Assembly: GCA_963920595.1 (NCBI GenBank)
Contig: OY986946.1
Span: forward strand, 4,092,001-4,156,000
Source: Eimeria praecox
Taxonomy: Eukaryota
Direction of reading: 5' to 3'
Length of the DNA stretch: 64,000 nt
Shown: positions 1 through 52,722 of the stretch, piece by piece
Numbering within the stretch: the stretch's first letter is position 1
How the letters are laid out: every line of letters starts with the position of its first letter
Notes under the pieces: model-generated
Told to the model about the DNA's origin: nothing
The model's input: only the letters and a program-made list of their open reading frames with translations
Databases searched by the model: none
Position numbers and translations under genes: made by a program

Positions 1-3000
1 CTACTAAACGTACGAGTTCTTCAAAAGCATCTAACCTTCCATCCAGTCTCCAATCATCCTGGTTACAGCTGGGAAAAGCCTCAGAGCTAGTGAGGATGGG
101 AGGCTGTAGCATTGCCTGCCATCGGCTGGACAATGTATGCCTACCTAAAAGGCTTTAATCTGCCTGAAGTTGGTAGATGCATTTTCAGTTGGGCACAGAC
201 TGCCTGCTGAGGGCAAAGTAAACATTTGTGTTCTGTCTAGAGTGGTGCAGCATGGCTTATCTCATGTTCGAATACACATTGCTACTTGCAGCCTACTAAG
301 GGGCAACAGGGTGTTAACATCAGGCAGTGCAAAAGGCTAAGACGTTAACTCATACAGTAAAAGAGAGATTGGAAGTGGACTCACGGGAGCTGCCCTGCAG
401 CATTAGTTAGCGCAAAGCGCGTCGTAGCTCACTGTAGGCTGGCCCTTGCTCCCACTAGTCCCCGGCCCTTGGGAAGCCGAGCCTAGGAAGCCTGGAGGCA
501 ACAGTGGAGGCCCATTGCTTTGGGGAGCTCTATAATTAGGGTCCCGGCTCTAGTGCTCTATTGGAGCTCGCAGCACTCCTCAGCTAGGATTGAGGACCCT
601 CGTTACATGGAAGCTCCGCGTGATGGTTATACCAAGGCAAACGTGTCACATTTCCGTAGCACATTCAGAGGACACAAGGCTTCCGGCATCCGACGCTATG
701 CAAGCTTACTCTCAGGTCGGCAAAGGAATGGACTGGCAGAAATGAGAAATCCTAATCCAAGGAAGGTGCTGCTAGAGCGCTACACCGAGAAACATCAGTC
801 CTTGATGAACAAAAGCCCAGCGGAGGAGTCAGAACTTCTATATCAACGATTCAAAGCAGGGCTATCCCGAGGAGCGAGAAAATCGGAAAGGAACTGAGCA
901 GTGGATAGCGAAGTAAGGGGTGAAAGTGTATAGCTTAGCAAGCATGCCCGCTTCATCCCTTGCTCGACTTCAGTTACAGCACGATAGGCCCAATCAATTA
1001 TTAGTCACTTCTGCAATCTCAATGATTTTTCGAAAAACTACTGGCAGGAACCAGAAATTCGTCGGCGCCTTCTGGCGCAAATCTATGAAGCGGCTTCATG
1101 CTGATCATAGCATGACCACCGTTGAACACCTTTATAAAGACAGTCACACTGAACGTATCAGTCTCACGCTTGTGCAGTATTTGACACTCTATGCTCAGCA
1201 GAAATTATATAGCATCACGATTTCCTTTCCTGAGCAGCAGAAAACGTTTATAATGCATCAGTATACTCTTCGACTTGTTGCTTTCCAGCTTCATACTCGG
1301 CACTAGACCTGGCTGTTAGAAGCAGGCCCCATAAGATCGCAGCTTTCGACATTTACACCCAGCTTGCGGCGCCACCGTAATGCACGAGGAAGACGCAACA
1401 GCGCACAAGACTACGCCCAGCCCCCCGTGAAAAAGGGTACCGGCGCCAGAAGAATATATGGCTAACGACACTTAGCAGCAACACTCGCACAAGTTGGATT
1501 CGTTCTAGTGATTTCGGAAGCTTTTTGTAAGGCGTTGGTGAAAGATCCGCACAAGAAGTTCGCCACTTGTTGTGCAGGGCCCTTTACTGTTCGTCCCTGG
1601 GCTAACGCGTTGATGTGCATCGTGACTTGACCACCACATGGAGATGCCATCATAGCATCCATCTTAGCTGTCACAAACGATTTAGGGAAGCACGAAAAAA
1701 GAACTTCCCGAACTCCTAAAGCAGAGCGGCAGCAACGTCAGTGCGAGAAGGAACAACAGGAGGCAAACGAGGTCCTGGACACCGATATGTGACGACAAAA
1801 AAGACCACAGATAACGAGGATACAGCGGTAAATAGCCAGGCGATCGGCAGTTTAAATAGGTTCCAGAGGATCGCTTGTGCAATGCATATCTTGTGGGGCA
1901 CCTACGTGTCTTTCTCGCTTCAGCGACGACTGCTGGCGTGAATACATGCAGCGCAGCTTAAGTGGGCATTGGGGCATTGTGCTTCTCCGTTCGGTGGCTG
2001 TCATTCTGTCGTAGGTAAAACCGTGCACATCCCTACTTACATGCCTATCTGTATACCTGCTATTCAGCTATGAGCTTTGCTCACCAATGACTAGTTATGG
2101 CTACCCAGGCGCAACAGCCGACAATATTTCATTTTTTTCAGATGTTTGGGCTGGCCCCCTTCCTCTGGGGCAGGCCGATCGCTGCCCATGCCATTTTAGT
2201 AGGGGCATCCGCACCACAAACAGCTCCCAAGCAAATTAAGCGGGCCGTTCTTGAGCAATGGCCACGCCTCTGAGCGAGTCTCTAGCCACCAGCAGCTGAT
2301 TGGCAGCGGCAGCGGCATGATGAAGCTTCATCCACAGATGCCTGCCCCCTTTGGCTTTTGTTATTTCCACCCTATTTGGTTCTGCTGGATGACTGGGTGC
2401 ATGAGGGTATCTGGTGGGGAGGGGGCTCAGATCTAGCATACTCTGCGAGCCATTGGTATTCATAGCTCTACTTGCTCGCAGCGTGGCTGTGCAGGGATAA
2501 GTAGCGCTTAACGACCCCCCAATACAGTGGCCTGCAATAGCACATGGAGAAAAAGAGGTTTAGTTGTGCGTACACGGGGAGCTGCGTTGGAGCAAGGCGC
2601 GTTCAAACTCGTGGCAAGCCGGTCCAGTCATCGTCATCTAGGACTCATGCATGTGGGAGGGAAGGCTAGCTGCTTTTCGTACATTCTTTGTCCAAGTTCT
2701 TGACCTTTGCAGCAGCTCTAGACAGTCTACAGCTAAGATGAGCTCTGTATCGGCAATTTTCTCTCACGGTGGTCTTCGGAGAAGATGGAGGGCTTTTGCA
2801 GCCAAGGACCTCGATCTTACCCGAGGAACGCCGCCAGCTGCAATAAGGTCAAACAATTGAAAATAGAGATCACAAAAACAACATGCCTGCACTCCCCCCT
2901 CTAGGCGTTCTGGACACACCGGTTCAAGAGCATGCGACTGGCGGGGAGAGGATAAGGCCTTCCTGCGCATCTGCGCATCTCGCTGTAACTAACGATGCAA

Positions 3001-17363: not shown

Positions 17364-17436
17364 GGGCGTCTAGCTCAAATGGTAGAGCGCTCGCTTAGCA
17401 TGCGAGAGGTAGAGGGATCGATACCCTCGTCGTCCA
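17364..17436 (+). tRNA. tRNA-Ala (anticodon AGC)
   Basis: 73-nt cloverleaf with anticodon arm CTCGC-TTAGCAT-GCGAG, G3:U70 alanine identity pair and ATCGATA T-loop typical of eukaryotic tRNA-Ala. A T-run follows about 10 nt downstream. Confidence 0.96.
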
Positions 17437-40210: not shown

Positions 40211-40234
40211 CAGGTTCGAACCCTGCCGGTACCG
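40161..40234 (+). tRNA. tRNA-Asn (GTT) copy 3
   Basis: Same sequence as copy 2. Confidence 0.96.
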
Positions 40235-40712
40235 CATTTTGTCCATCTTACGCGAACCAGGACTCTTCGTGGTGAAGCACTCTGCTGATTGTGCCAGAAT
40301 TCGCCTTTGGGGAGGAGGACAGCACTACCCAGACCTCCGATAATCGCCCTCGTCCTCGCCCGAGAAATGCAGCTCCAACTCCCGGGAAAGGAGAAGAAGA
40401 AACGTGGTGAAGCACTCTGCTGATTGTGCCAGAATTCGCCTTTGGGGAGGAGGACAGCACTACCCAGACCTCCGAGAATCGCCCCCATCCTCGTCCGAGA
40501 AACGCAACTCCAAGTCCCGGGAGAGGAGAAGCAAAACCGCCCCTCCGTTTCAAAAACGCACTTCTCAAGCGTTGGGATCTTCCAATAGTGCAAAGGTCAA
40601 GTGGGATTCCCCTTTGACATACCTGATGGGGGACTCATGTTCGAGCCATCGCTGTTCTCCCGGCACCGCCGAACAGTCACGGTGATCATGTTGAGCGGAA
40701 GGCGCGCGCCAC

Positions 40713-40762
<50 letters not shown>

Positions 40763-40786
40763 CAGGTTCGAACCCTGCCGGTACCG
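40713..40786 (+). tRNA. tRNA-Asn (GTT) copy 4
   Basis: Same sequence as copy 2. Confidence 0.96.
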
Positions 40787-41261
40787 CATTTTGTCCATCT
40801 TACGCGAACCAGGACTCTTCGTGGTGAAGCACTCTGCTGATTGTGCCAGAATTCGCCTTTGGGGAGGACAGCACTACCCAGACCTCCGATAATCGCCCTC
40901 ATCCTCGCCCGAGAAACGCAGCTCCAACTCCCGGGAAAGGAGAAGAAGAAACGTGGTGAAGCACTCTGCTGATTGTGCCAGAATTCGCCTTTGGGGAGGA
41001 GGACAGCACTAGCCAGACCTCCGAGAATCGCCCCCATCCTCGTCCGAGAAACGCAACTCCAAGTCCCGGGAGAGGAGAAGCAAAACCGCCCCTCCGTTTC
41101 AAAAACGCACTTCTCAAGCTTTGGGATCTTCCAATAGTGCAAAGGTCAAGTGGGATTCCCCTTTGACATACCTGATGGGGGACTCATGTTCGAGCCATCG
41201 CTGTTCTCCCGGCACCGCCGAACAGTCACGGTGATCATGTTGAGCGGAAGGCGCGCGCCAC

Positions 41262-41311
<50 letters not shown>

Positions 41312-41335
41312 CAGGTTCGAACCCTGCCGGTACCG
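41262..41335 (+). tRNA. tRNA-Asn (GTT) copy 5
   Basis: Same sequence as copy 2; longer T-run downstream. Confidence 0.96.
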
Positions 41336-41810
41336 CATTTTTTCCATCTTACGCGAACCAGGACTCTTCGTGGTGAAGCACTCTGCTGATTGTGCCAGAA
41401 TTCGCCTTTGGGGAGGACAGCACTACCCAGACCTCCGATAATCGCCCTCATCCTCGCCCGAGAAACGCAGCTCCAACTCCCGGGAAAGGAGAAGAAGAAA
41501 CGTGGTGAAGCACTCTGCTGATTGTGCCAGAATTCGCCTTTGGGGAGGAGGACAGCACTACCCAGACCTCCGAGAATCGCCCCCATCCTCGTCCGAGAAA
41601 CGCAACTCCAAGTCCCGGGAGAGGAGAAGCAAAACCGCCCCTCCGTTTCAAAAACGCACTTCTCAAGCGTTGGGATCTTCCAATAGTGCAAAGGTCAAGT
41701 GGGATTCCCCTTTGACATACATGATGGGGGACTCATGTTCGAGCCATCGCTGTTCTCCCGGCACCGCCGAACAGTCACGGTGATCATGTTGAGCGGAAGG
41801 CGCGCGCCAC

Positions 41811-41860
<50 letters not shown>

Positions 41861-41884
41861 CAGGTTCGAACCCTGCCGGTACCG
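41811..41884 (+). tRNA. tRNA-Asn (GTT) copy 6
   Basis: Same sequence as copy 2. Confidence 0.96.
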
Positions 41885-42359
41885 CATTTTGTCCATCTTA
41901 CGCGAACCAGGACTCTTCGTGGTGAAGCACTCTGCTGATTGTGCCAGAATTCGCCTTTGGGGAGGACAGCACTACCCAGACCTCCGATAATCGCCCTCAT
42001 CCTCGCCCGAGAAACGCAGCTCCAACTCCCGGGAAAGGAGAAGAAGAAACGTGGTGAAGCACTCTGCTGATTGTGCCAGAATTCGCCTTTGGGGAGGAGG
42101 ACAGCACTAGCCAGACCTCCGAGAATCGCCCCCATCCTCGTCCGAGAAACGCAACTCCAAGTCCCGGGAGAGGAGAAGCAAAACCGCCCCTCCGTTTCAA
42201 AAACGCACTTCTCAAGCTTTGGGATCTTCCAATAGTGCAAAGGTCAAGTGGGATTCCCCTTTGACATACCTGATGGGGGACTCATGTTCGAGCCATCGCT
42301 GTTCTCCCGGCACCGCCGAACAGTCACGGTGATCATGTTGAGCGGAAGGCGCGCGCCAC

Positions 42360-42409
<50 letters not shown>

Positions 42410-42433
42410 CAGGTTCGAACCCTGCCGGTACCG
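42360..42433 (+). tRNA. tRNA-Asn (GTT) copy 7
   Basis: Same sequence as copy 2. Confidence 0.96.
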
Positions 42434-42908
42434 CATTTTGTCCATCTTACGCGAACCAGGACTCTTCGTGGTGAAGCACTCTGCTGATTGTGCCAGAATT
42501 CGCCTTTGGGGAGGACAGCACTACCCAGACCTCCGATAATCGCCCTCATCCTCGCCCGAGAAACGCAGCTCCAACTCCCGGGAAAGGAGAAGAAGAAACG
42601 TGGTGAAGCACTCTGCTGATTGTGCCAGAATTCGCCTTTGGGGAGGAGGACAGCACTAGCCAGACCTCCGAGAATCGCCCTCATCCTCGCCCGAGAAATG
42701 CAGCTCCAACTCCCGGGAGAGGAGAAGCAAAACCGCCCCTCCGTTTCAAAAACGCACTTCTCAAGCTTTGGGATCTTCCAATAGTGCAAAGGTCAAGTGG
42801 GATTCCCCTTTGACATACCTGATGGGGGACTCATGTTCGAGCCATCGCTGTTCTCCCGGCACCGCCGAACAGTCACGGTGATCATGTTGAGCGGAAGGCG
42901 CGCGCCAC

Positions 42909-42958
<50 letters not shown>

Positions 42959-42982
42959 CAGGTTCGAACCCTGCCGGTACCG
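42909..42982 (+). tRNA. tRNA-Asn (GTT) copy 8
   Basis: Same sequence as copy 2. Confidence 0.96.
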
Positions 42983-43460
42983 CATTTTGTCCATCTTACG
43001 CGAACCAGGACTCTTCGTGGTGAAGCACTCTGCTGATTGTGCCAGAATTCGCCTTTGGGGAGGAGGACAGCACTACCCAGACCTCCGAGAATCGCCCTCG
43101 TCCTCGCCCGAGAAATGCAGCTCCAACTCCCGGGAAAGGAGAAGAAGAAACGTGGTGAAGCACTCTGCTGATTGTGCCAGAATTCGCCTTTGGGGAGGAG
43201 GACAGCACTACCCAGACCTCCGAGAATCGCCCCCATCCTCGTCCGAGAAACGCAGCTCCAAATCCCGGGAGAGGAGAAGCAAAACCGCCCCTCCGTTTCA
43301 AAAACGCACTTCTCAAGCGTTGGGATCTTCCAATAGTGCAAAGGTCAAGTGGGATTCCCCTTTGACATACCTGATGGGGGACTCATGTTTGAGCCATCGC
43401 TGTTCTCCCGGCACCACCGAACAGTCACGGTGATCATGTTGAGCGGAAGGCGCGCGCCAC

Positions 43461-43510
<50 letters not shown>

Positions 43511-43534
43511 CAGGTTCGAACCCTGCCGGTACCG
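43461..43534 (+). tRNA. tRNA-Asn (GTT) copy 9
   Basis: Same sequence as copy 2. Confidence 0.96.
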
Positions 43535-44012
43535 CATTTTATCCATCTTACGCGAACCAGGACTCTTCGTGGTGAAGCACTCTGCTGATTGTGCCAGAAT
43601 TCGCCTTTGGCGAAGAGGACAGCACTACCCAGACCTCCGATAATCGCCCTCATCCTCGCCCGAGAAATGCAGCTCCAACTCCCGGGAAAGGAGAAGAAGA
43701 AACGTGGTGAAGCACTCTGCTAATTGTGCCAGAATTCGCCTTTGGGGAGGAGGACAGCACTAGCCAGACCTCCGAGAATCGCCCCCATCCTCGTCCGAGA
43801 AACGCAACTCCAACTCCCGGGAGAGGAGAAGCAAAACCGCCCCTCCGTTTCAAAAACGCACTTCTCAAGCTTTGGGATCTTCCAATAGTGCAAAGGTCAA
43901 GTGGGATTCCCCTTTGACATACATGATGGGGGACTCATGTTCGAGCCATCGCTGTTCTCCCGGCACCGCCGAACAGTCACGGTGATCATGTTGAGCGGAA
44001 GGCGCGCGCCAC

Positions 44013-44062
<50 letters not shown>

Positions 44063-44086
44063 CAGGTTCGAACCCTGCCGGTACCG
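44013..44086 (+). tRNA. tRNA-Asn (GTT) copy 10
   Basis: Same sequence as copy 2. Confidence 0.96.
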
Positions 44087-44564
44087 CATTTTGTCCATCT
44101 TACGCGAACCAGGACTCTTCGTGGTGAAGCACTCTGCTGATTGTGCCAGAATTCGCCTTTGGGGAGGAGGACAGCACTACCCAGACCTCCGAGAATCGCC
44201 CTCGTCCTCGCCCGAGAAATGCAGCTCCAACTCCCGGGAAAGGAGAAGAAGAAACGTGGTGAAGCACTCTGCTGATTGTGCCAGAATTCGCCTTTGGGGA
44301 GGAGGACAGCACTACCCAGACCTCCGAGAATCGCCCCCATCCTCGTCCGAGAAACGCAACTCCAAGTCCCGGGAGAGGAGAAGCAAAACCGCCCCTCCGT
44401 TTCAAAAACGCACTTCTCAAGCGTTGGGATCTTCCAATAGTGCAAAGGTCAAGTGGGATTCCCCTTTGACATACATGATGGGGGACTCATGTTCGAGCCA
44501 TCGCTGTTCTCCCGGCACCGCCGAACAGTCACGGTGATCATGTTGAGCGGAAGGCGCGCGCCAC

Positions 44565-44614
<50 letters not shown>

Positions 44615-44638
44615 CAGGTTCGAACCCTGCCGGTACCG
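44565..44638 (+). tRNA. tRNA-Asn (GTT) copy 11; T-run terminator disrupted
   Basis: Same tRNA body, followed by CATTGT instead of CATTTT. Confidence 0.95.
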
Positions 44639-45251
44639 CATTGTATCCATCTTACGCGAACCAGGACTCTTCGTGGTGAAGCACTCTGCTGATTGTGCCA
44701 GAATTCGCCTTTGGGGAGGAGGACAGCACTACCCAGACCTCCGAGAATCGCCCTCATCCTCGCCCGAGAAATGCAGCTCCAACTCCCGGGAGAGGAGAAG
44801 AAGAAACGTGGTGAAGCACTCTGCTGATTGTGCCAGAATTCGCCTTTGGGGAGGAGGACAGCACTACCCAGACCTCCGATAATCGCCCTCGTCCTCGCCC
44901 GAGAAATGCAGCTCCAACTCCCCGGAGACGAGAAGAAGAAACGTGGTGAAGCACTCTGCTGATTGTGCCAGAATTCGCCTTTGGGGAGGAGGACAGCACT
45001 AGCCAGACCTCCGAGAATCGCCCCCATCCTCGTCCGAGAAACGCAACTCCAAGTCCCGGGAGAGGAGAAGCAAAACCGCCCCTCCGTTTCAAAAACGCAC
45101 TTCTCAAGCGTTGGGATCTTCCAATAGTGCAAAGGTCAAGTGGGATTCCCCTTTGACATACATGATGGGGGACTCATGTTCGAGCCATCGCTGTTCTCCC
45201 GGCACCGCCGAACAGTCACGGTGATCATGTTGAGCGGAAGGCGCGCGCCAC

Positions 45252-45301
<50 letters not shown>

Positions 45302-45325
45302 CAGGTTCGAACCCTGCCGGTACCG
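45252..45325 (+). tRNA. tRNA-Asn (GTT) copy 12
   Basis: Same sequence as copy 2. Confidence 0.96.
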
Positions 45326-45665
45326 CATTTTGTCCATCTTACGCGAACCAGGACTCTTCGTGGTGAAGCACTCTGCTGATTGTGCCAGAATTCGCCTTTG
45401 GGGAGGACAGCACTACCCAGACCCCCGAGGACCGCCCTCATCCTCGCCCGAGAAATGCAGCTCCAACTCCCGGGAAAGGAGAAGCAAAACCGCCCCTCCG
45501 TTTCAAAAACGCACTTCTCAAGCGTTGGGATCTTCCAATAGTGCAAAGGTCAAGTGGGATTCCCCTTTGACATACCTGATGGGGGACTCATGTTCGAGCC
45601 ATCGCTGTTCTCCCGGCACCGCCGAACAGTCACGGTGATCATGTTGAGCGGAAGGCGCGCGCCAC

Positions 45666-45715
<50 letters not shown>

Positions 45716-45739
45716 CAGGTTCGAACCCTGCCGGTACCG
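45666..45739 (+). tRNA. tRNA-Asn (GTT) copy 13
   Basis: Same sequence as copy 2. Confidence 0.96.
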
Positions 45740-46217
45740 CATTTTGTCCATCTTACGCGAACCAGGACTCTTCGTGGTGAAGCACTCTGCTGATTGTGCC
45801 AGAATTCGCCTTTGGGGAGGAGGACAGCACTACCCAGACCTCCGAGAATCGCCCTCGTCCTCGCCCGAGAAATGCAGCTCCAACTCCCGGGAAAGGAGAA
45901 GAAGAAACGTGGTGAAGCACTCTGCTAATTGTGCCAGAATTCGCCTTTGGGGAGGAGGACAGCACTAGCCAGACCTCCGAGAATCGCCCCCATCCTCGTC
46001 CGAGAAACGCAACTCCAAGTCCCGGGAGAGGAGAAGCAAAACCGCCCCTCCGTTTCAAAAACGCACTTCTCAAGCGTTGGGATCTTCCAATAGTGCAAAG
46101 GTCAAGTGGGATTCCCCTTTGACATACATGATGGGGGACTCATGTTCGAGCCATCGCTGTTCTCCCGGCACCGCCGAACAGTCACGGTGATCATGTTGAG
46201 CGGAAGGCGCGCGCCAC

Positions 46218-46267
<50 letters not shown>

Positions 46268-46291
46268 CAGGTTCGAACCCTGCCGGTACCG
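46218..46291 (+). tRNA. tRNA-Asn (GTT) copy 14
   Basis: Same sequence as copy 2. Confidence 0.96.
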
Positions 46292-46904
46292 CATTTTATC
46301 CATCTTACGCGAACCAGGACTCTTCGTGGTGAAGCACTCTGCTGATTGTGCGAGAATTCGCCTTTGGGGAGGAGGACAGCACTACCCAGACCTCCGAGAA
46401 TCGCCCTCATCCTCGCCCGAGAAATGCAGCTCCAACTCCCGGGAAAGGAGAAGAAGAAACGTGGTGAAGCACTCTGCTAATTGTGCCAGAATTCGCCTTT
46501 GGGGAGGAGGACAGCACTACCCAGACCTCCGAGAATCGCCCTCGTCCTCGCCCGAGAAATGCAGCTCCAACTCCCCGGAGACGAGAAGAAGAAACGTGGT
46601 GAAGCACTCTGCTGATTGTGCCAGAATTCGCCTTTGGGGAGGAGGACAGCACTAGCCAGACCTCCGAGAATCGCCCCCATCCTCGTCCGAGAAACGCAAC
46701 TCCAAGTCCCGGGAGAGGAGAAGCAAAACCGCCCCTCCGTTTCAAAAACGCACTTCTCAAGCGTTGGGATCTTCCAATAGTGCAAAGGTCAAGTGGGATT
46801 CCCCTTTGACATACATGATGGGGGACTCATGTTCGAGCCATCGCTGTTCTCCCGGCACCGCCGAACAGTCACGGTGATCATGTTGAGCGGAAGGCGCGCG
46901 CCAC

Positions 46905-46954
<50 letters not shown>

Positions 46955-46978
46955 CAGGTTCGAACCCTGCCGGTACCG
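46905..46978 (+). tRNA. tRNA-Asn (GTT) copy 15
   Basis: Same sequence as copy 2. Confidence 0.96.
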
Positions 46979-47318
46979 CATTTTATCCATCTTACGCGAA
47001 CCAGGACTCTTCGTGGTGAAGCACTCTGCTGATTGTGCCAGAATTCGCCTTTGGGGAGGACAGCACTACCCAGACCTCCGAGAATCGCCCTCATCCTCGC
47101 CCGAGAAATGCAGCTCCAACTCCCGGGAAAGGAGAAGCAAAACCGCCCCTCCGTTTCAAAAACGCACTTCTCAAGCTTTGGGATCTTCCAATAGTGCAAA
47201 GGTCAAGTGGGATTCCCCTTTGACATACCTGATGGGGGACTCATGTTCGAGCCATCGCTGTTCTCCCGGCACCGCCGAACAGTCACGGTGATCATGTTGA
47301 GCGGAAGGCGCGCGCCAC

Positions 47319-47368
<50 letters not shown>

Positions 47369-47392
47369 CAGGTTCGAACCCTGCCGGTACCG
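47319..47392 (+). tRNA. tRNA-Asn (GTT) copy 16
   Basis: Same sequence as copy 2. Confidence 0.96.
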
Positions 47393-47870
47393 CATTTTGT
47401 CCATCTTATGCGAACCAGGACTCTTCGTGGTGAAGCACTCTGCTGATTGTGCCAGAATTCGCCTTTGGGGAGGAGGACAGCACTACCCAGACCTCCGATA
47501 ATCGCCCTCGTCCTCGCCCGAGAAATGCAGCTCCAAGTCCCGGGAGACGAGAAGAAGAAACGTGGTGAAGCACTCTGCTGATTGTGCCAGAATTCGCCTT
47601 TGGGGAGGAGGACAGCACTAGCCAGACCTCCGAGAATCGCCCCCATCCTCGTCCGAGAAACGCAACTCCAAGTCCCGGGAGAGGAGAAGCAAAACCGCCC
47701 CTCCGTTTCAAAAACGCACTTCTCAAGCGTTGGGATCTTCCAATAGTGCAAAGGTCAAGTGGGATTCCCCTTTGACATACATGATGGGGGACTCATGTTC
47801 GAGCCATCGCTGTTCTCCCGGCACCGCCGAACAGTCACGGTGATCATGTTGAGCGGAAGGCGCGCGCCAC

Positions 47871-47920
<50 letters not shown>

Positions 47921-47944
47921 CAGGTTCGAACCCTGCCGGTACCG
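47871..47944 (+). tRNA. tRNA-Asn (GTT) copy 17
   Basis: Same sequence as copy 2. Confidence 0.96.
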
Positions 47945-48284
47945 CATTTTATCCATCTTACGCGAACCAGGACTCTTCGTGGTGAAGCACTCTGCTGATT
48001 GTGCCAGAATTCGCCTTTGGGGAGGACAGCACTACCCAGACCTCCGAGAATCGCCCTCATCCTCGCCCGAGAAATGCAGCTCCAACTCCCGGGAAAGGAG
48101 AAGCAAAACCGCCCCTCCGTTTCAAAAACGCACTTCTCAAGCTTTGGGATCTTCCAATAGTGCAAAGGTCAAGTGGGATTCCCCTTTGACATACCTGATG
48201 GGGGACTCATGTTCGAGCCATCGCTGTTCTCCCGGCACCGCCGAACAGTCACGGTGATCATGTTGAGCGGAAGGCGCGCGCCAC

Positions 48285-48334
<50 letters not shown>

Positions 48335-48358
48335 CAGGTTCGAACCCTGCCGGTACCG
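48285..48358 (+). tRNA. tRNA-Asn (GTT) copy 18
   Basis: Same sequence as copy 2. Confidence 0.96.
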
Positions 48359-48836
48359 CATTTTGTCCATCTTATGCGAACCAGGACTCTTCGTGGTGAA
48401 GCACTCTGCTGATTGTGCCAGAATTCGCCTTTGGGGAGGAGGACAGCACTACCCAGACCTCCGATAATCGCCCTCGTCCTCGCCCGAGAAATGCAGCTCC
48501 AACTCCCGGGAAAGGAGAAGAAGAAACGTGGTGAAGCACTCTGCTAATTGTGCCAGAATTCGCCTTTGGGGAGGAGGACAGCACTAGCCAGACCTCCGAG
48601 AATCGCCCCCATCCTCGTCCGAGAAACGCAACTCCAAGTCCCGGGAGAGGAGAAGCAAAACCGCCCCTCCGTTTCAAAAACGCACTTCTCAAGCGTTGGG
48701 ATCTTCCAATAGTGCAAAGGTCAAGTGGGATTCCCCTTTGACATACATGATGGGGGACTCATGTTCGAGCCATCGCTGTTCTCCCGGCACCGCCGAACAG
48801 TCACGGTGATCATGTTGAGCGGAAGGCGCGCGCCAC

Positions 48837-48886
<50 letters not shown>

Positions 48887-48910
48887 CAGGTTCGAACCCT
48901 GCCGGTACCG
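48837..48910 (+). tRNA. tRNA-Asn (GTT) copy 19
   Basis: Same sequence as copy 2. Confidence 0.96.
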
Positions 48911-49243
48911 CATTTTATCCATCTTACGCGAACCAGGGCTGTTCGTGGTGAAGCACTCTGCTGATTGTGCCAGAATTCGCCTTTGGGGAGGAGGACAGCA
49001 CTAGCCAGGCCTGCGAGAATCGCCCTCGTCCTCGCCCGAGAAACGCAGCTCCAACTCCCGGGAGAGGAGAAGCAGAAACGCCCCTTCATTTAAACAAGAG
49101 CAGTTCTCAACCTATGGGAGCTTCTACTAGTTCAAAGTTGAAGTGGGATCAATTTTGACGTGCCTGCTGGGGGATGCATATTCGAGCCATATCTGTTCTC
49201 CCGGCACCGCCGAACAGTCACGGTGATCATGTGGAGCGGACGG

Positions 49244-49684
49244 TGCAATGCGTGATCACTACAACGCGGTTTCCGCTGAGGTGATGGGGAGTGAATTCGT
49301 TATAAAGCACAGGGTGCAAGATATCTCATAGAATAATGAGCGTTTGGACCGTTGTTGTGGTCGAATGGGCCGCTCGTGCCTACAGCTCTTAGGATTTAGG
49401 GCAGGCGGTCCCGTGGCGCTTGCTTCTGAGAGGGTGAGGCGCGCGGTCCTAACTCTCTTTGAGGACAGTCATACGCTTAGAAGGGGAGATGTTTAGAGGG
49501 GGAGACGTTTTAAGAAGAAACATCCTAAGAAGCCCGCTTTTGCGCTTTGAGTAGTCGGGATTGGGTGTTTAATGGTTTCTAGTAAGGTATCCGCAGAGAT
49601 ATGAATTGGATAGATAGTGTGCACGGGGCTTCGCAGGCCATAGTTTAACGTAATGCCAGCTATGAGGCCAGGCGGTCCACTACG
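49244..49684 (+). repeat. 5' LTR (441 bp)
   Basis: Begins TGCAATGCGTGATCACTACAA and ends GGCGGTCCACTACG. Colinear with 51773-52215; shared blocks include GAGTGAATTCGT, GGCGGTCCCGTGGCGCTTGC, AACATCCTAAGAAGCC and GCTTCGCAGGCC. Confidence 0.88.
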
Positions 49685-49685
49685 T

Positions 49686-49704
49686 TGGGGGGCTGTTCCG
49701 GGAT
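49686..49704 (+). promoter_or_regulatory. Putative primer-binding site, tRNA-Pro-like
   Basis: TGGGGGGCTGTTCCGGGAT immediately after the 5' LTR resembles the canonical tRNA-Pro PBS TGGGGGCTCGTCCGGGAT. Confidence 0.65.
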
Positions 49705-50150
49705 AATTTTAACTCGATGTCTCTTGCATTCGAAGTAGAATCCGCGACTACAGTGACTGCTGAAAAGAGGCGTTGTAGGCTCCAAGCGGTCGGAGGCCAA
49801 CGCGTACATGGGCCTGCGCAACGGGAGGATGCTACCTGAGACCTCTTGCACTTACGTTGAGCCCGCGTTTGCGGCAATTTTTGAGTCATTTCGTAACCTG
49901 TCTCAGGATGTCTCAGGCCAAGCCGCGCATGCACGTATGCAACGGAAAGATCCTAAGCGGTAACGCAGGCTCAGGCTGGGGAAGGAAGAGAGCTCCCATA
50001 CGAATCAGAGAGTGAAATGGGTGTAGAAGATGAGGAACCGCCCGTCGTTTCGCCGAAGGAGATTTTCCACCGGAAGTCAAGGTTATGCTCATACGGCATA
50101 GACACGACGGCGTCTGAAGAAGAGCCGCGCACAAACTTAACTTCAGGATA

Positions 50151-51680
50151 ATGTCTGAAGACAGCAGGCACAACAGAAGCCAGCGGATGCGGCATGAGCT
50201 GCCGCAAGCGAAACCGAGAGGGGAGGAGGCAACGGAGGGGACTCCGCTTGTAGAGAGTACGATGGTTGAGAGAACCGACGTATATTATGAATGTAACGGT
50301 ACAGGGATTCTATGCGCTGTAGTGACAGGACTTAATGAGATTCCCGTGTCCTCGAAGTGGGGGAAGAAAACAATAGGTGGGGGCAGGCCCGTTACGATAG
50401 AGGCTGCCGAAAGGGAAGAGGATCCGCAGGCAATGGAGGCGTACATAGAGGGGGAGGCCACAGGGGATGAAGTGGAAGAGATATGGCGTGTAGCAAACTG
50501 ATTTTGCAAAGGAAAAGCTGAGGGAGCGGATGATTCCGATTGTCTGATTGGTGAGAGTGTAGTGACGCCATGGGGACGCGAAGCTAGTGAGCTACCAGAA
50601 TCTAACAAGGGCGGTATATTGTACAACGTTGGCACTACCGCCGTTCTAAGAGTAGATGCAGCTGGCGGCTACGGCGAGGCGCTCTTGGATACGGAGGCCT
50701 CAAGAGCTTCACTAGTCAAGGGAGAGTTGAACATTTACAGCTGAAGGGGCGGCGACCTTCAGAAGAATGTATGCTTACAGTGGTCAGTGGCGAACAGATG
50801 CGCCACTGACCACTGTAAACATACATTCTTCTGAAGGTCGCAGTGGCCAGTGGCGCATCTGTTCGCCACTGACCACTGTAAACATACATTCTTCTTACAG
50901 ATGCGCATTGATCGTGTTGCCATGAGATCGACGACCGGGGGTGGACGGGAGCCTTCCACAGGAAATTTCTTGAGGGGGCTTGTGTCCTATGAAGTTGTGT
51001 TGGGGCTTGCTTCGTCGACCGCGCAACGAGTGGCGTGGTATCTTCAGTCCGACAGTTGCGAATCCGCGTGAATGAGACGTGGGATGAGCTAACGTTAGCT
51101 CGATCATGTGCAGAAAGGCAAAAGGGAGGCCACGCTAAAGGAATGCGGCAGAGGACCCCAGCAGAGCACGCATACGTCATCATCGCCAGGCAAGTGGCGG
51201 GCACGTCAACGGAACAGGTCGCGGCCATCCTACGGCCCCCACCTCAGCGGTACCAGGCCCACGCGAGGGCAGGGGCGAAGGTATTGATTGATTCTTTAGT
51301 TCAGCAGGATAAGGCAAATGTGCAGGGAATATACCGTATAGTGGCTTCTCTGGATGCCGGAAACACAGTGGGGGTACGCCGCATCGATGAGCGGCGAGGG
51401 GGACTGTGCTATGCATGGATTGGGCTTCTCCACCCGTCAGTCAGCTAGTTCAGCAACCAAGCTCATAATAACTCAACAGCAGATGGAGATGAGAAGGAAC
51501 ACCGAGGAGTGAGGCACAACTCGGATATTTCGAACCTGATGAATGGATGGTGACAGCAGAGGCGCAGTGCTTCTCTCAGGAGATCCTCGACGTGTTGCGG
51601 AACACCGGAAGGTCTTCCCCGACGCAGTACCGGCACGGCTGCCGCCAAGGCGCCCTGACAATTATCACACCTTTCTTGTG
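50151..51680 (+). pseudogene. Frameshifted gag/protease/pre-RT remnants of the retrotransposon
   Basis: YYECNGTG (decayed CCHC knuckle, ~50281); EALLDTEASR (retropepsin LLDTGAS with G->E, Asp codon 50688-50690); YEVVLGL (D-x-x-L-G-like); HRKVFPDAVPARLPPRRPDNY (Ty3/gypsy VFP..LP..LPP.R linker, ~51600-51665). Multiple stops and frameshifts. Confidence 0.8.
50752..50841. repeat. 41-bp-arm inverted repeat (1 mismatch, 8-nt loop)
   Basis: GCGACCTTCAGAAGAATGTATGCTTACAGTGGTCAGTGGCG-AACAGATG-CGCCACTGACCACTGTAAACATACATTCTTCTGAAGGTCGC. Confidence 0.93.
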
Positions 51681-51757
51681 CTAGTTTCGATTCGTGACTA
51701 CGCGTTGTTTGGCGTGTTGTTAGGCTTTCTTGCTGTGAAGCGAGGGGGATTAAATAT

Positions 51758-51770
51758 GAGAACGGGGGAA
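51758..51770 (+). promoter_or_regulatory. Putative polypurine tract
   Basis: GAGAACGGGGGAA, 2 nt before the TG start of the 3' LTR. Confidence 0.6.
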
Positions 51771-51772
51771 CT

Positions 51773-52215
51773 TGTGGCGCACGAGCATTACAATGTGGTC
51801 TCCGCTGAGTTGCTGACGAGTGAATTCGTCATAAAGCAGAGTATATAGAATATTTATCATATAATAGGGAGCTTTGAGACCACTATTGCGGTCGAATGGG
51901 CAGCCCGTGCCTACAGCCCTTAGGATTGGGGGGTGGCGGTCCCGTGGCGCTTGCCTCTTAGAGAGTGACGCGCTCTGTCCTACCTCTCCTTGAGGGCACT
52001 CAGACATTTAGAAGGGGAGACGTTTAAAGGGGAGACTTTTTAAGAAGGAACATCCTAAGAAGCCGGCTTTTGGACTTTGAATAGTCGGAACTTGATGTCT
52101 AATGGTTTCTGGTAAGGTACTCGCAGAGACATGAGTTAAGTAGGTACTGTGGATGTAAGCTTCGCAGGCCTTAGTTTGACGCAACGTCACCTACGTGACT
52201 AGGCTGTTCCCTACA
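51773..52215 (+). repeat. 3' LTR (443 bp), TG...CA ends
   Basis: Begins TGTGGCG and ends GGCTGTTCCCTACA; direct repeat of 49244-49684. Confidence 0.88.
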
Positions 52216-52231
52216 GAGTGCCCTCCCCCAC

Positions 52232-52281
<50 letters not shown>

Positions 52282-52305
52282 CAGGTTCGAACCCTGCCGG
52301 TACCG
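52232..52305 (+). tRNA. tRNA-Asn (GTT) copy 20
   Basis: Same sequence as copy 2; starts 16 bp after the 3' LTR. Confidence 0.96.
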
Positions 52306-52648
52306 CATTTTATTCATCTTACGCGAACCACAGCTGATCGTGGTGAAGCACTCTGCTGATTGTGCCAGAATTCGCCTTTGGGGAGGAGGACAGCACTAGC
52401 CAGACCTCCGATAATCGCCCTCATCCTCGCCCGAGAAATGCAGCTCCAACTCCCGGGAGAGGAGAAGCAGAAACGCCCCTCCGTTTCAAAAACGCACTTC
52501 TCAAGCGTTGGGATCTTCCAATAGTGCAAAGGTCAAGTGGGATTCCCCTTTGACATACATGATGGGGGACTCATGTTCGAGCCATCGCTGTTCTCCCGGC
52601 ACCGCCGAACAGTCACGGTGATCATGTTGAGCGGAAGGCGCGCGCCAC

Positions 52649-52698
<50 letters not shown>

Positions 52699-52722
52699 CA
52701 GGTTCGAACCCTGCCGGTACCG
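52649..52722 (+). tRNA. tRNA-Asn (GTT) copy 21
   Basis: Same sequence as copy 2; followed by a decayed spacer start to about 52800. Confidence 0.96.

What the first reader, a model, noticed from the sequence alone, without database searches (positions are those of the whole stretch)
49244..52231. Ty3/gypsy LTR element 16 bp upstream of a tRNA gene: candidate tDNA-targeted retrotransposon
Seen: the element interrupts the unit at the tRNA 5' flank. The left junction follows GAGCGGACGG (normally -20 to -11) and the 3' LTR ends 16 bp before mature +1 of copy 20; the possible TSD is eroded (GACGG/GAGTG). Known: yeast Ty3 integrates at Pol III start sites about 16-19 bp upstream of tRNA coding sequences via TFIIIB, and Dictyostelium DGLT-A targets similarly. 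Eimeria has Ty3/gypsy elements, but I know of no described tRNA targeting there. Inference: Pol III-directed integration in this lineage, supported by the similar motif at copy 1.
Basis: partly seen in the sequence, partly recalled or inferred. Interest (0 to 1): 0.9.

Follow-up and report, generated by a model that had tools for sequence, protein, structure and literature searches.

The report
Eimeria chromovirus remnants at tRNA starts
In an Eimeria-type parasite genome, a broken retrotransposon ends 16 bases before one tRNA gene and a second, smaller remnant ends 15 bases before another, so these elements likely (about even odds, untested genome-wide) aimed at tRNA start sites as yeast Ty3 does.

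Summary
Observation confirmed. A 2,972-bp LTR element (49244-52215; LTRs 345/440 alike) splits one unit of a 21-copy tRNA-Asn array. Its 3' LTR ends 16 bp before mature +1, and the left junction lies at -11, the overlap a 5-bp target duplication would leave (3 of 5 bases still match). It is an old, non-autonomous member of the known Eimeria Ty3/gypsy chromoviruses: protease and linker remain; RT and integrase are deleted, with a deletion junction shared by another E. praecox locus. New here: before tRNA copy 1 lies a second pol remnant (RT start, E 4e-11), joined to a 13/14 match of the LTR end, 15 bp from +1, same orientation. It holds RT sequence the first element lacks, so it is probably a separate element. 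Targeting itself is not shown. No genome was held, and two contig layouts gave no further junction. One family LTR seems not to abut a repeated tRNA gene. Relatives keep a largely canonical chromodomain. Copy 1's junction could have been copied from copy 20. Odds of Ty3-like Pol III targeting: about 0.48.

The parts
39063..52722 (+). Tandem array of 21 tRNA-Asn(GTT) genes, units of about 414-690 bp
49054..49243 (+). Left flank of the element: the 5' flank of an array unit, cut at -11 and more diverged than the others
   Evidence: 157 of 189 identical to the unit-19 flank, against 182-190 of 190 for the 19 intact units, one being the reference itself
49239..49243 (+). Left copy of the candidate 5-bp target site duplication
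   Evidence: 3 of 5 identical to the right copy
49244..49684 (+). 5' LTR (441 nt, TG...CG)
49686..49703 (+). Primer-binding-site-like tract starting TGG; resembles a tRNA-Pro primer site (recalled, not tested)
   Evidence: similar letters follow two other 5' LTRs
49808..50683 (+). Decayed coding region upstream of the protease, shared with Eimeria gene models; no domain assigned
   Evidence: tblastn hits of P0002-P0005, P0008, P0019
50684..51680 (+). Broken aspartic protease and protease-RT linker; stops and frameshifts; homology ends just before RT
50752..50895 (.). Fold-back (inverted repeat) insertion inside the protease remnant; another copy lacks it
   Evidence: I1, I2; table 5, joint 50764 to 50897
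51681..51728 (+). Sequence beyond the pol deletion, shared with another E. praecox locus (P0039); faintly like RNase H
   Evidence: 21 of 33 residues identical across the junction, E 2.5e-08; RNase H likeness only E 0.37-9
51758..51770 (+). Polypurine-tract-like run before the 3' LTR
   Evidence: sequence
51773..52215 (+). 3' LTR (443 nt, TG...CA)
52216..52231 (+). 16-bp spacer; its first 5 bases are the right copy of the candidate target duplication
   Evidence: runs read G at 52223 and 52226
52232..52305 (+). tRNA-Asn copy 20
   Evidence: 69.9 bits
38854..39033 (+). Second chromovirus pol remnant: end of linker and start of RT, same orientation
   Evidence: tblastn E 4e-11, 41 hits in this bin, profile hit E 8e-05, alignments
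39034..39047 (+). 14-mer matching the 3' LTR end at 13 of 14 bases
39048..39062 (+). 15-bp spacer before copy 1; 11 of 15 like the copy-20 spacer, 6 of 15 like the array flank
39063..39136 (+). tRNA-Asn copy 1

Best explanation
An old, internally deleted Ty3/gypsy chromovirus-type element lies with its 3' LTR 16 bp before a tRNA-Asn gene and a second pol remnant ends 15 bp before another, likely because the family's integrase was tethered to the RNA polymerase III start site. Shown: the two junctions, their common orientation, the loss of RT and integrase, and a deletion junction shared with another locus. Inferred: the copy-20 element moved as a non-autonomous passenger of an intact relative; the integrase docked on the Pol III pre-initiation complex (TFIIIB, by analogy with Ty3) through its C-terminal SH3-chromodomain part and cut at about -16 and -11 from mature +1, leaving a 5-bp duplication; an RT-bearing relative did the same at the first gene of the array and was later deleted down to about 200 bp. 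The flanks next to the insert then dropped out of array homogenisation.
For: Position: the candidate duplication spans -16 to -12; Ty3 cuts at -6 and -2 from the start site with a 5-bp duplication (PMC8632968, passages) and the start site is about 10 bp before the mature tRNA (PMC5911963 Table 1); DGLT-A lands 13-33 bp upstream. A 10-bp window is 1.8% of a 550-bp unit; with assumed 300-2,315 insertions and 150-300 tRNA genes in 60 Mb, 0.007-0.116 such hits are expected per genome (inputs assumed, 2,315 from Reid suppl. S8). Second junction: RT remnant plus LTR end 15 bp before copy 1. Likely separate element: P0039, from another E. praecox locus, reads across the same pol deletion, so the copy-20 subfamily had lost RT before it spread, while the copy-1 remnant has RT. 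Single old insertion: flank divergence (26 of 100 at 250-350 nt into the unit) matches LTR divergence (95 of 440). The third cage residue is non-aromatic in 9 of 20 relatives. Brf1 homology was reported in all eukaryotes of a set with three apicomplexans (PMC1540719, passages).
Against: Only 2 of the 22 tRNA genes of the window have such a junction, both tRNA-Asn in one array. No junction from another locus was seen (tables capped at 6 loose ends a run). One LTR-bearing contig (X1 record 2, X2 record 10) runs 3,079 and 1,318 nt past the aligned piece with no break and no PBS piece listed, whereas this locus's contig breaks 26 nt into the tRNA; it may be a 5' LTR of a diverged copy. An old integrase remnant at 934-1401 has no tRNA gene within 16 kb downstream. 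The first cage residue is aromatic in 20 of 20 relatives and the second is W in 19 of 20; tRNA-targeting Ty3 and Skipper-2 lack the cage. The copy-1 junction resembles copy 20's at 24 of 29 bases, the 14-mer more than the element's own 5' LTR does (13 versus 10 of 14), as copying would give; P 0.15 at 78% identity. The rest of a copy-1 element was not found.
Confidence: 0.48

Rival explanations
1. One untargeted insertion happened to land 16 bp before a tRNA in a redundant array where it did no harm. The copy-1 junction is a later copy of it: repair or unequal recombination between tRNA copies carried the spacer and the last 14 bp of LTR to the array edge and joined them to an unrelated RT remnant.
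For: Only 14 bp of LTR survive at copy 1, joined abruptly to RT sequence; junctions alike at 24 of 29 bases, same orientation and offset; E. praecox holds 2,315 fragments, covering 2.37% of the assembly (PMC9141347); one family LTR contig without a tRNA-type break.
Against: Needs a hit in a window expected 0.007-0.116 times per genome (assumed inputs), an RT remnant in the same orientation at the right place, and a conversion tract running beyond homology.
Confidence: 0.3
2. The family prefers a chromatin state, not Pol III factors: its chromodomain reads methylated histones, the tandem tRNA array is such a region, elements gathered there, and the exact offset reflects accessible DNA at the gene's 5' edge or chance.
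For: Relatives carry PF00385 (8 of 8 scanned); the profile's chromodomain part matches HP1, MPP8 and CDY structures at E about 1e-12; canonical chromodomains go with heterochromatin in Skipper-1 and MAGGY (PMC5006619); two remnants lie in or at one array.
Against: Does not explain two ends within 1 bp of the same offset; no other LTR piece was found in the 13.7-kb array.
Confidence: 0.17
3. The element is a recombinant of two elements, or an assembly join, so the junction geometry says nothing of one integration.
For: LTRs differ at 95 of 440 bases; the duplication matches at only 3 of 5.
Against: Both junctions are bridged by contigs in two runs; flank divergence matches LTR divergence. A recombinant of two inserts at the same offset would itself imply targeting.
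Confidence: 0.05

Closest known systems
Eimeria chromoviruses (eimten1LTR, eimpra1LTR and kin; Reid et al. 2014, PMC4199364)
   Same: Same pol family: best hits are E. praecox, E. necatrix, E. brunetti and E. mitis gene models; fragmented and inactive, as described there.
   Different: This copy is a non-autonomous deletion subfamily. No link to tRNA genes appears in that paper: 'tRNA' 0 times in the main text and 0 in the supplemental methods.
Ty3 of Saccharomyces cerevisiae
   Same: Ty3/gypsy order PR-RT-RH-IN in relatives; best solved-structure match of the family profile is the Ty3 polyprotein 7q5b (E 4e-211); same offset from the tRNA and a likely 5-bp duplication.
   Different: Ty3's chromodomain lacks the aromatic cage and binds Brf1; here two of three cage residues are kept. 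Targeting is proven for Ty3, only suggested here.
DGLT-A of Dictyostelium
   Same: Ty3/gypsy, 13-33 bp upstream of tRNA genes; only part of the copies is tRNA-linked in several subfamilies, e.g. 6 of 15.
   Different: DGLT-A lacks a chromodomain and inserts in either orientation; both junctions here face the same way.
Skipper-2 of dictyostelids
   Same: A chromovirus that shifted to tRNA genes.
   Different: Lands downstream of tRNA genes and has lost the first and third cage residues; here upstream, first residue kept in 20 of 20.

Membership tests
Ty3/gypsy LTR retrotransposon (Metaviridae) | Two direct LTRs with TG...CA ends | tested here: met
   the 5' LTR ends CG, other copies end CA
Ty3/gypsy LTR retrotransposon (Metaviridae) | [quoted passage not shown] | tested here: met
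   TGG tract at 49686, purine run 51758-51770; the primer tRNA was not identified by a call
Ty3/gypsy LTR retrotransposon (Metaviridae) | pol order PR-RT-RH-IN | tested here: inconclusive
   RT and IN are deleted in this copy; relatives matching its protease and linker have this order
Ty3/gypsy LTR retrotransposon (Metaviridae) | 4-6 bp target site duplication | tested here: inconclusive
   junctions overlap by 5-6 bp; 3 of 5 bases match
Eimeria chromovirus | Sequence kinship with Eimeria gypsy pol | tested here: met
   43 hits at E up to 0.001; of 20 looked up, 18 clusters carry Eimeria names and 2 none
Eimeria chromovirus | Chromodomain at the integrase C-terminus | tested here: inconclusive
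   absent from this deleted copy; present in 8 of 8 relatives scanned, which are 32-46% identical in the linker; the actual helper element is unknown
Autonomous element | Open gag-pol with RT and IN | tested here: not met
   12 stops in the 523-codon frame read; no RT or IN
Pol III-targeting retrotransposon (Ty3/DGLT-A kind) | Insertion within about 10-30 bp upstream of a tRNA coding sequence | tested here: met
   16 bp at copy 20, 15 bp at copy 1
Pol III-targeting retrotransposon (Ty3/DGLT-A kind) | Many independent copies at that offset across the genome | tested here: inconclusive
   no genome; two searches gave no new junction and one weak counter-example
Pol III-targeting retrotransposon (Ty3/DGLT-A kind) | Cage-less or absent chromodomain | tested here: not met
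   relatives: first residue aromatic 20 of 20, W 19 of 20, third aromatic 11 of 20
Pol III-targeting retrotransposon (Ty3/DGLT-A kind) | Integrase binds TFIIIB or TFIIIC | not testable with these tools
   no Eimeria TFIIIB sequence was fetched and no binding test run

The most novel reading that the evidence does not exclude
A branch of Eimeria chromoviruses, with a non-autonomous passenger family, evolved Ty3-like precision at Pol III start sites on its own: tRNA-gene targeting in an alveolate, upstream rather than downstream as in Skipper-2, by an integrase whose chromodomain has kept most of its histone-reading cage and may be a halfway stage between heterochromatin reader and TFIIIB anchor.
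Probability: 0.4. Interest if true: 0.75.

Novelty: new variant of a known kind. Interest (0 to 1): 0.55.

Why it matters
tRNA-gene targeting is documented in yeasts and social amoebae (PMC5911963 Table 1). A case in Apicomplexa would add another eukaryotic supergroup and a chromovirus that lands upstream. It would make a long-standing question testable: how a chromodomain turns from a histone reader into a Pol III anchor, since the Eimeria relatives vary at the third cage residue. It would also say where these parasites' native elements went. If the rival holds, this is an ordinary decayed insertion, still useful as a marker of how a tRNA array is homogenised.

Tried and rejected
No whole genome was held. 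Pfam on 13 ORFs of the element: no retroelement family. Word-indexed search with the 151-aa ORF: 0 of 914 candidates. A 20-nt LTR pattern in metagenome contigs gave 2 loci, both 67-73% GC with no further likeness: chance. P0046 against viral and genome contigs: 0 of 1 and 0 of 11 stretches confirmed. Alignment A1 gave 5 distant loci with no tRNA gene (0 of 5) and no LTR pair in the 3 examined: uninformative. The tRNA-Asn pattern was absent from genome contigs. The second contig layout, aimed at the 5' LTR end, showed 12 of 37 loose ends and no new 3' junction; the first showed 18 of 383. A two-contig mixed loose end at 51779 could not be read as tRNA or not. A two-LTR profile found no third LTR in the window, and the internal region found nothing beside the array. 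BLAST extends the copy-1 RT match into the tRNA by a few residues across an 11-residue gap; rejected as chance. Look-ups of earlier findings by place and sequence were empty. Paper searches for an Eimeria or apicomplexan tRNA-targeting report listed none by title or abstract start; the library lacks most subscription journals and RepBase reports, and supplement file 1 of PMC4199364 was not searched.

Full report
Setting. The window is coccidian: CAG-rich repeats, and the nearest named relatives of the element's proteins are Eimeria praecox gene models. No whole genome was held. ARAGORN and Rfam agree on 21 tRNA-Asn(GTT) genes at 39063-52722 and one tRNA-Ala at 17364.

The observation. The element runs from 49244 to 52215. 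Its LTRs (441 and 443 nt) share 345 of 440 aligned bases, K2P 0.26. A TGG tract follows the 5' LTR and a purine run precedes the 3' LTR. The left flank is the array's own 5' flank up to -11; on the right 16 bp remain before +1 of copy 20. The junctions thus overlap by 5-6 bp, as a 5-bp duplication plus one indel would give. The two 5-mers match at 3 of 5 bases, which is weak (10% by chance; 30% chance of such decay at this age). Three public runs hold the stretch (two samples). Contigs of X1 and X2 bridge both junctions, and two other copies end their 5' LTR at the same base and continue into PBS-like letters, which fixes the LTR end. The left flank is 157 of 189 identical to the array flank, against 182-190 of 190 for the 19 intact units; in the worst 100 bp it differs at 26, close to the LTR divergence. 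One old insertion fits all this.

What the element is. Its ORFs hit no retroelement Pfam family (0 of 13). Read through with X at stops, the main frame found 43 relatives. Of 29 scanned, 16 carry retroviral-type aspartic protease domains, 3 RT and 1 integrase. Mapped back, they cover 49808-51728: a pre-protease region, the protease, and the linker up to the point just before RT. RT and integrase are missing. Full-length relatives read PR-RT-RH-IN-SH3-chromodomain. This is the chromovirus family of Reid et al. 2014 (PMC4199364; passages of main text and of supplements 5 and 6), who count 1 full-length copy and 2,315 fragments in E. praecox. Contig depth in X1 is about 50 for single copies, 164-696 over the internal bins and 942 over the best LTR bin, with 17 contigs at 51928: a family of roughly ten internal copies and some tens of LTR pieces, most under 90% alike. 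P0039, an E. praecox model from another locus, reads across the same pol deletion (21 of 33 residues). So the deletion came before amplification: a non-autonomous subfamily. That rests on one protein, helped by continuous contig cover across 51697 (8 contigs).

The second junction. Directly upstream lies about 180 bp of pol, the end of the linker and the start of RT (E 4e-11; 49 relatives hit it), in the same orientation. The copy-20 subfamily lacks this stretch. The simplest reading is a second, RT-bearing element whose middle was deleted to within 14 bp of its end. The other reading is that spacer and LTR tip were copied from copy 20 and joined to an unrelated remnant. The junctions match at 24 of 29 bases (13 of 14, 11 of 15); copy 1's spacer matches the present array flank at only 6 of 15. 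Both readings allow this: shared descent, or two inserts each preserving the old flank. No upstream LTR or protease was found for the copy-1 remnant. By my own rough weighing this junction about doubles the odds of targeting, no more.

The family-wide test. It could not be run. Two contig layouts list at most 6 loose ends a run, 30 letters each; none showed a 3' junction of another locus (18 of 383 and 12 of 37 shown). One result counts against strict targeting: an LTR-bearing contig continues 3,079 nt (X1) and 1,318 nt (X2) beyond its aligned piece without a break and with no PBS piece listed, whereas this locus's contig stops 26 nt into the repeated tRNA. It could still be the 5' LTR of a diverged copy or sit by a single-copy tRNA gene; several DGLT-A subfamilies are only partly tRNA-linked (PMC5006619 Table 1, passages). 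An older integrase remnant at 934-1401 has no tRNA nearby, but its ends are unknown. Collection scans gave nothing usable.

Mechanism. Ty3 cuts at -6 and -2 from the Pol III start site, guided by TBP and Brf1 contacts of the integrase C-terminal domain and a cage-less chromodomain (PMC8632968, passages). With the start about 10 bp before the mature tRNA (PMC5911963, passages and Table 1), that is about -16 to -12, the place seen here; the Eimeria start site was not measured. Brf1-like factors are reported across eukaryotes including apicomplexans (PMC1540719, passages), and a Toxoplasma TFIIIB component is named in PMC13377188 (passages). Against the analogy: among the 20 of 80 relatives P0045-P0124 whose chromodomain fitted my motif, the first cage residue is aromatic in 20, the second W in 19, the third aromatic in 11, and the domain resembles HP1 and MPP8. 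That is closer to heterochromatin-seeking chromoviruses than to Ty3 or Skipper-2, though the loss of the third residue in 9 is notable. Which relative mobilised this element is unknown.

Odds. With assumed inputs, a chance hit in a 10-bp window upstream of some tRNA is expected 0.007-0.116 times per genome. Set against a low prior for targeting (my estimate, under 10%), the first junction raises the odds about tenfold, the second about twofold, and the counter-evidence lowers them somewhat: 0.48 for Pol III tethering, 0.30 for one chance insertion with a copied junction, 0.17 for a regional chromatin preference, 0.05 for a recombinant or artefact. These are judgements, not computed values.

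Novelty. The family is known; a tRNA link is not mentioned in the passages I saw of PMC4199364, PMC4851813, PMC5880244, PMC9141347 (plus part 1 of 5 of its supplement and a term search of it) or PMC9131526, and searches listed no such report. The review table of tRNA-targeting elements holds only yeasts and amoebae. Subscription papers, RepBase reports and unread supplements could hold it. Earlier scan notes on fungal cases were not checked and served only as context. The tRNA-Pro likeness of the PBS is recalled and comes from no call.

Verdict. Real feature, correctly described; known element family; a plausible but unproven new targeting habit, resting on one sure and one probable junction in a single array. 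Interest 0.55; 0.75 if the genome-wide mapping shows a peak.

Noticed in passing
window 39063-52722: A 21-copy tRNA-Asn tandem array whose spacer holds 1-3 copies of a 135-bp subrepeat; units 95-100% alike except beside the insert.
   Followed up: partly
window 934-1401 (+): Very old gypsy integrase-core remnant (best E 5e-06), no LTR recognised, no tRNA gene within 16 kb downstream.
   Followed up: partly
window 50752-50895: Nested inverted repeats (41- and 55-bp arms) inserted in the protease remnant; absent from another copy; may be a fold-back duplication.
   Followed up: partly
window 49194-49243: The last 50 bp before the insert are nearly identical to the array while 60-170 bp upstream is about 25% diverged: conversion up to the junction, or a conserved upstream element with a short hairpin.
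   Followed up: no
window 52223, 52226: Runs X1 and X2 read G where the window has C, inside a C-rich run: isolate difference or assembly error.
   Followed up: no
window 49686-49703, 52202-52210: The PBS-like tract and the 3' LTR end share a 9-base word; unexplained.
   Followed up: no
L004:1666-5781, L005:3596-5185: Gypsy pol genes 40-56% identical to coccidian-type relatives sit in contigs of two bacterial MAGs, probably eukaryotic contamination.
   Followed up: partly
window 17364-17436: A lone tRNA-Ala(AGC) gene with no LTR beside it.
   Followed up: yes
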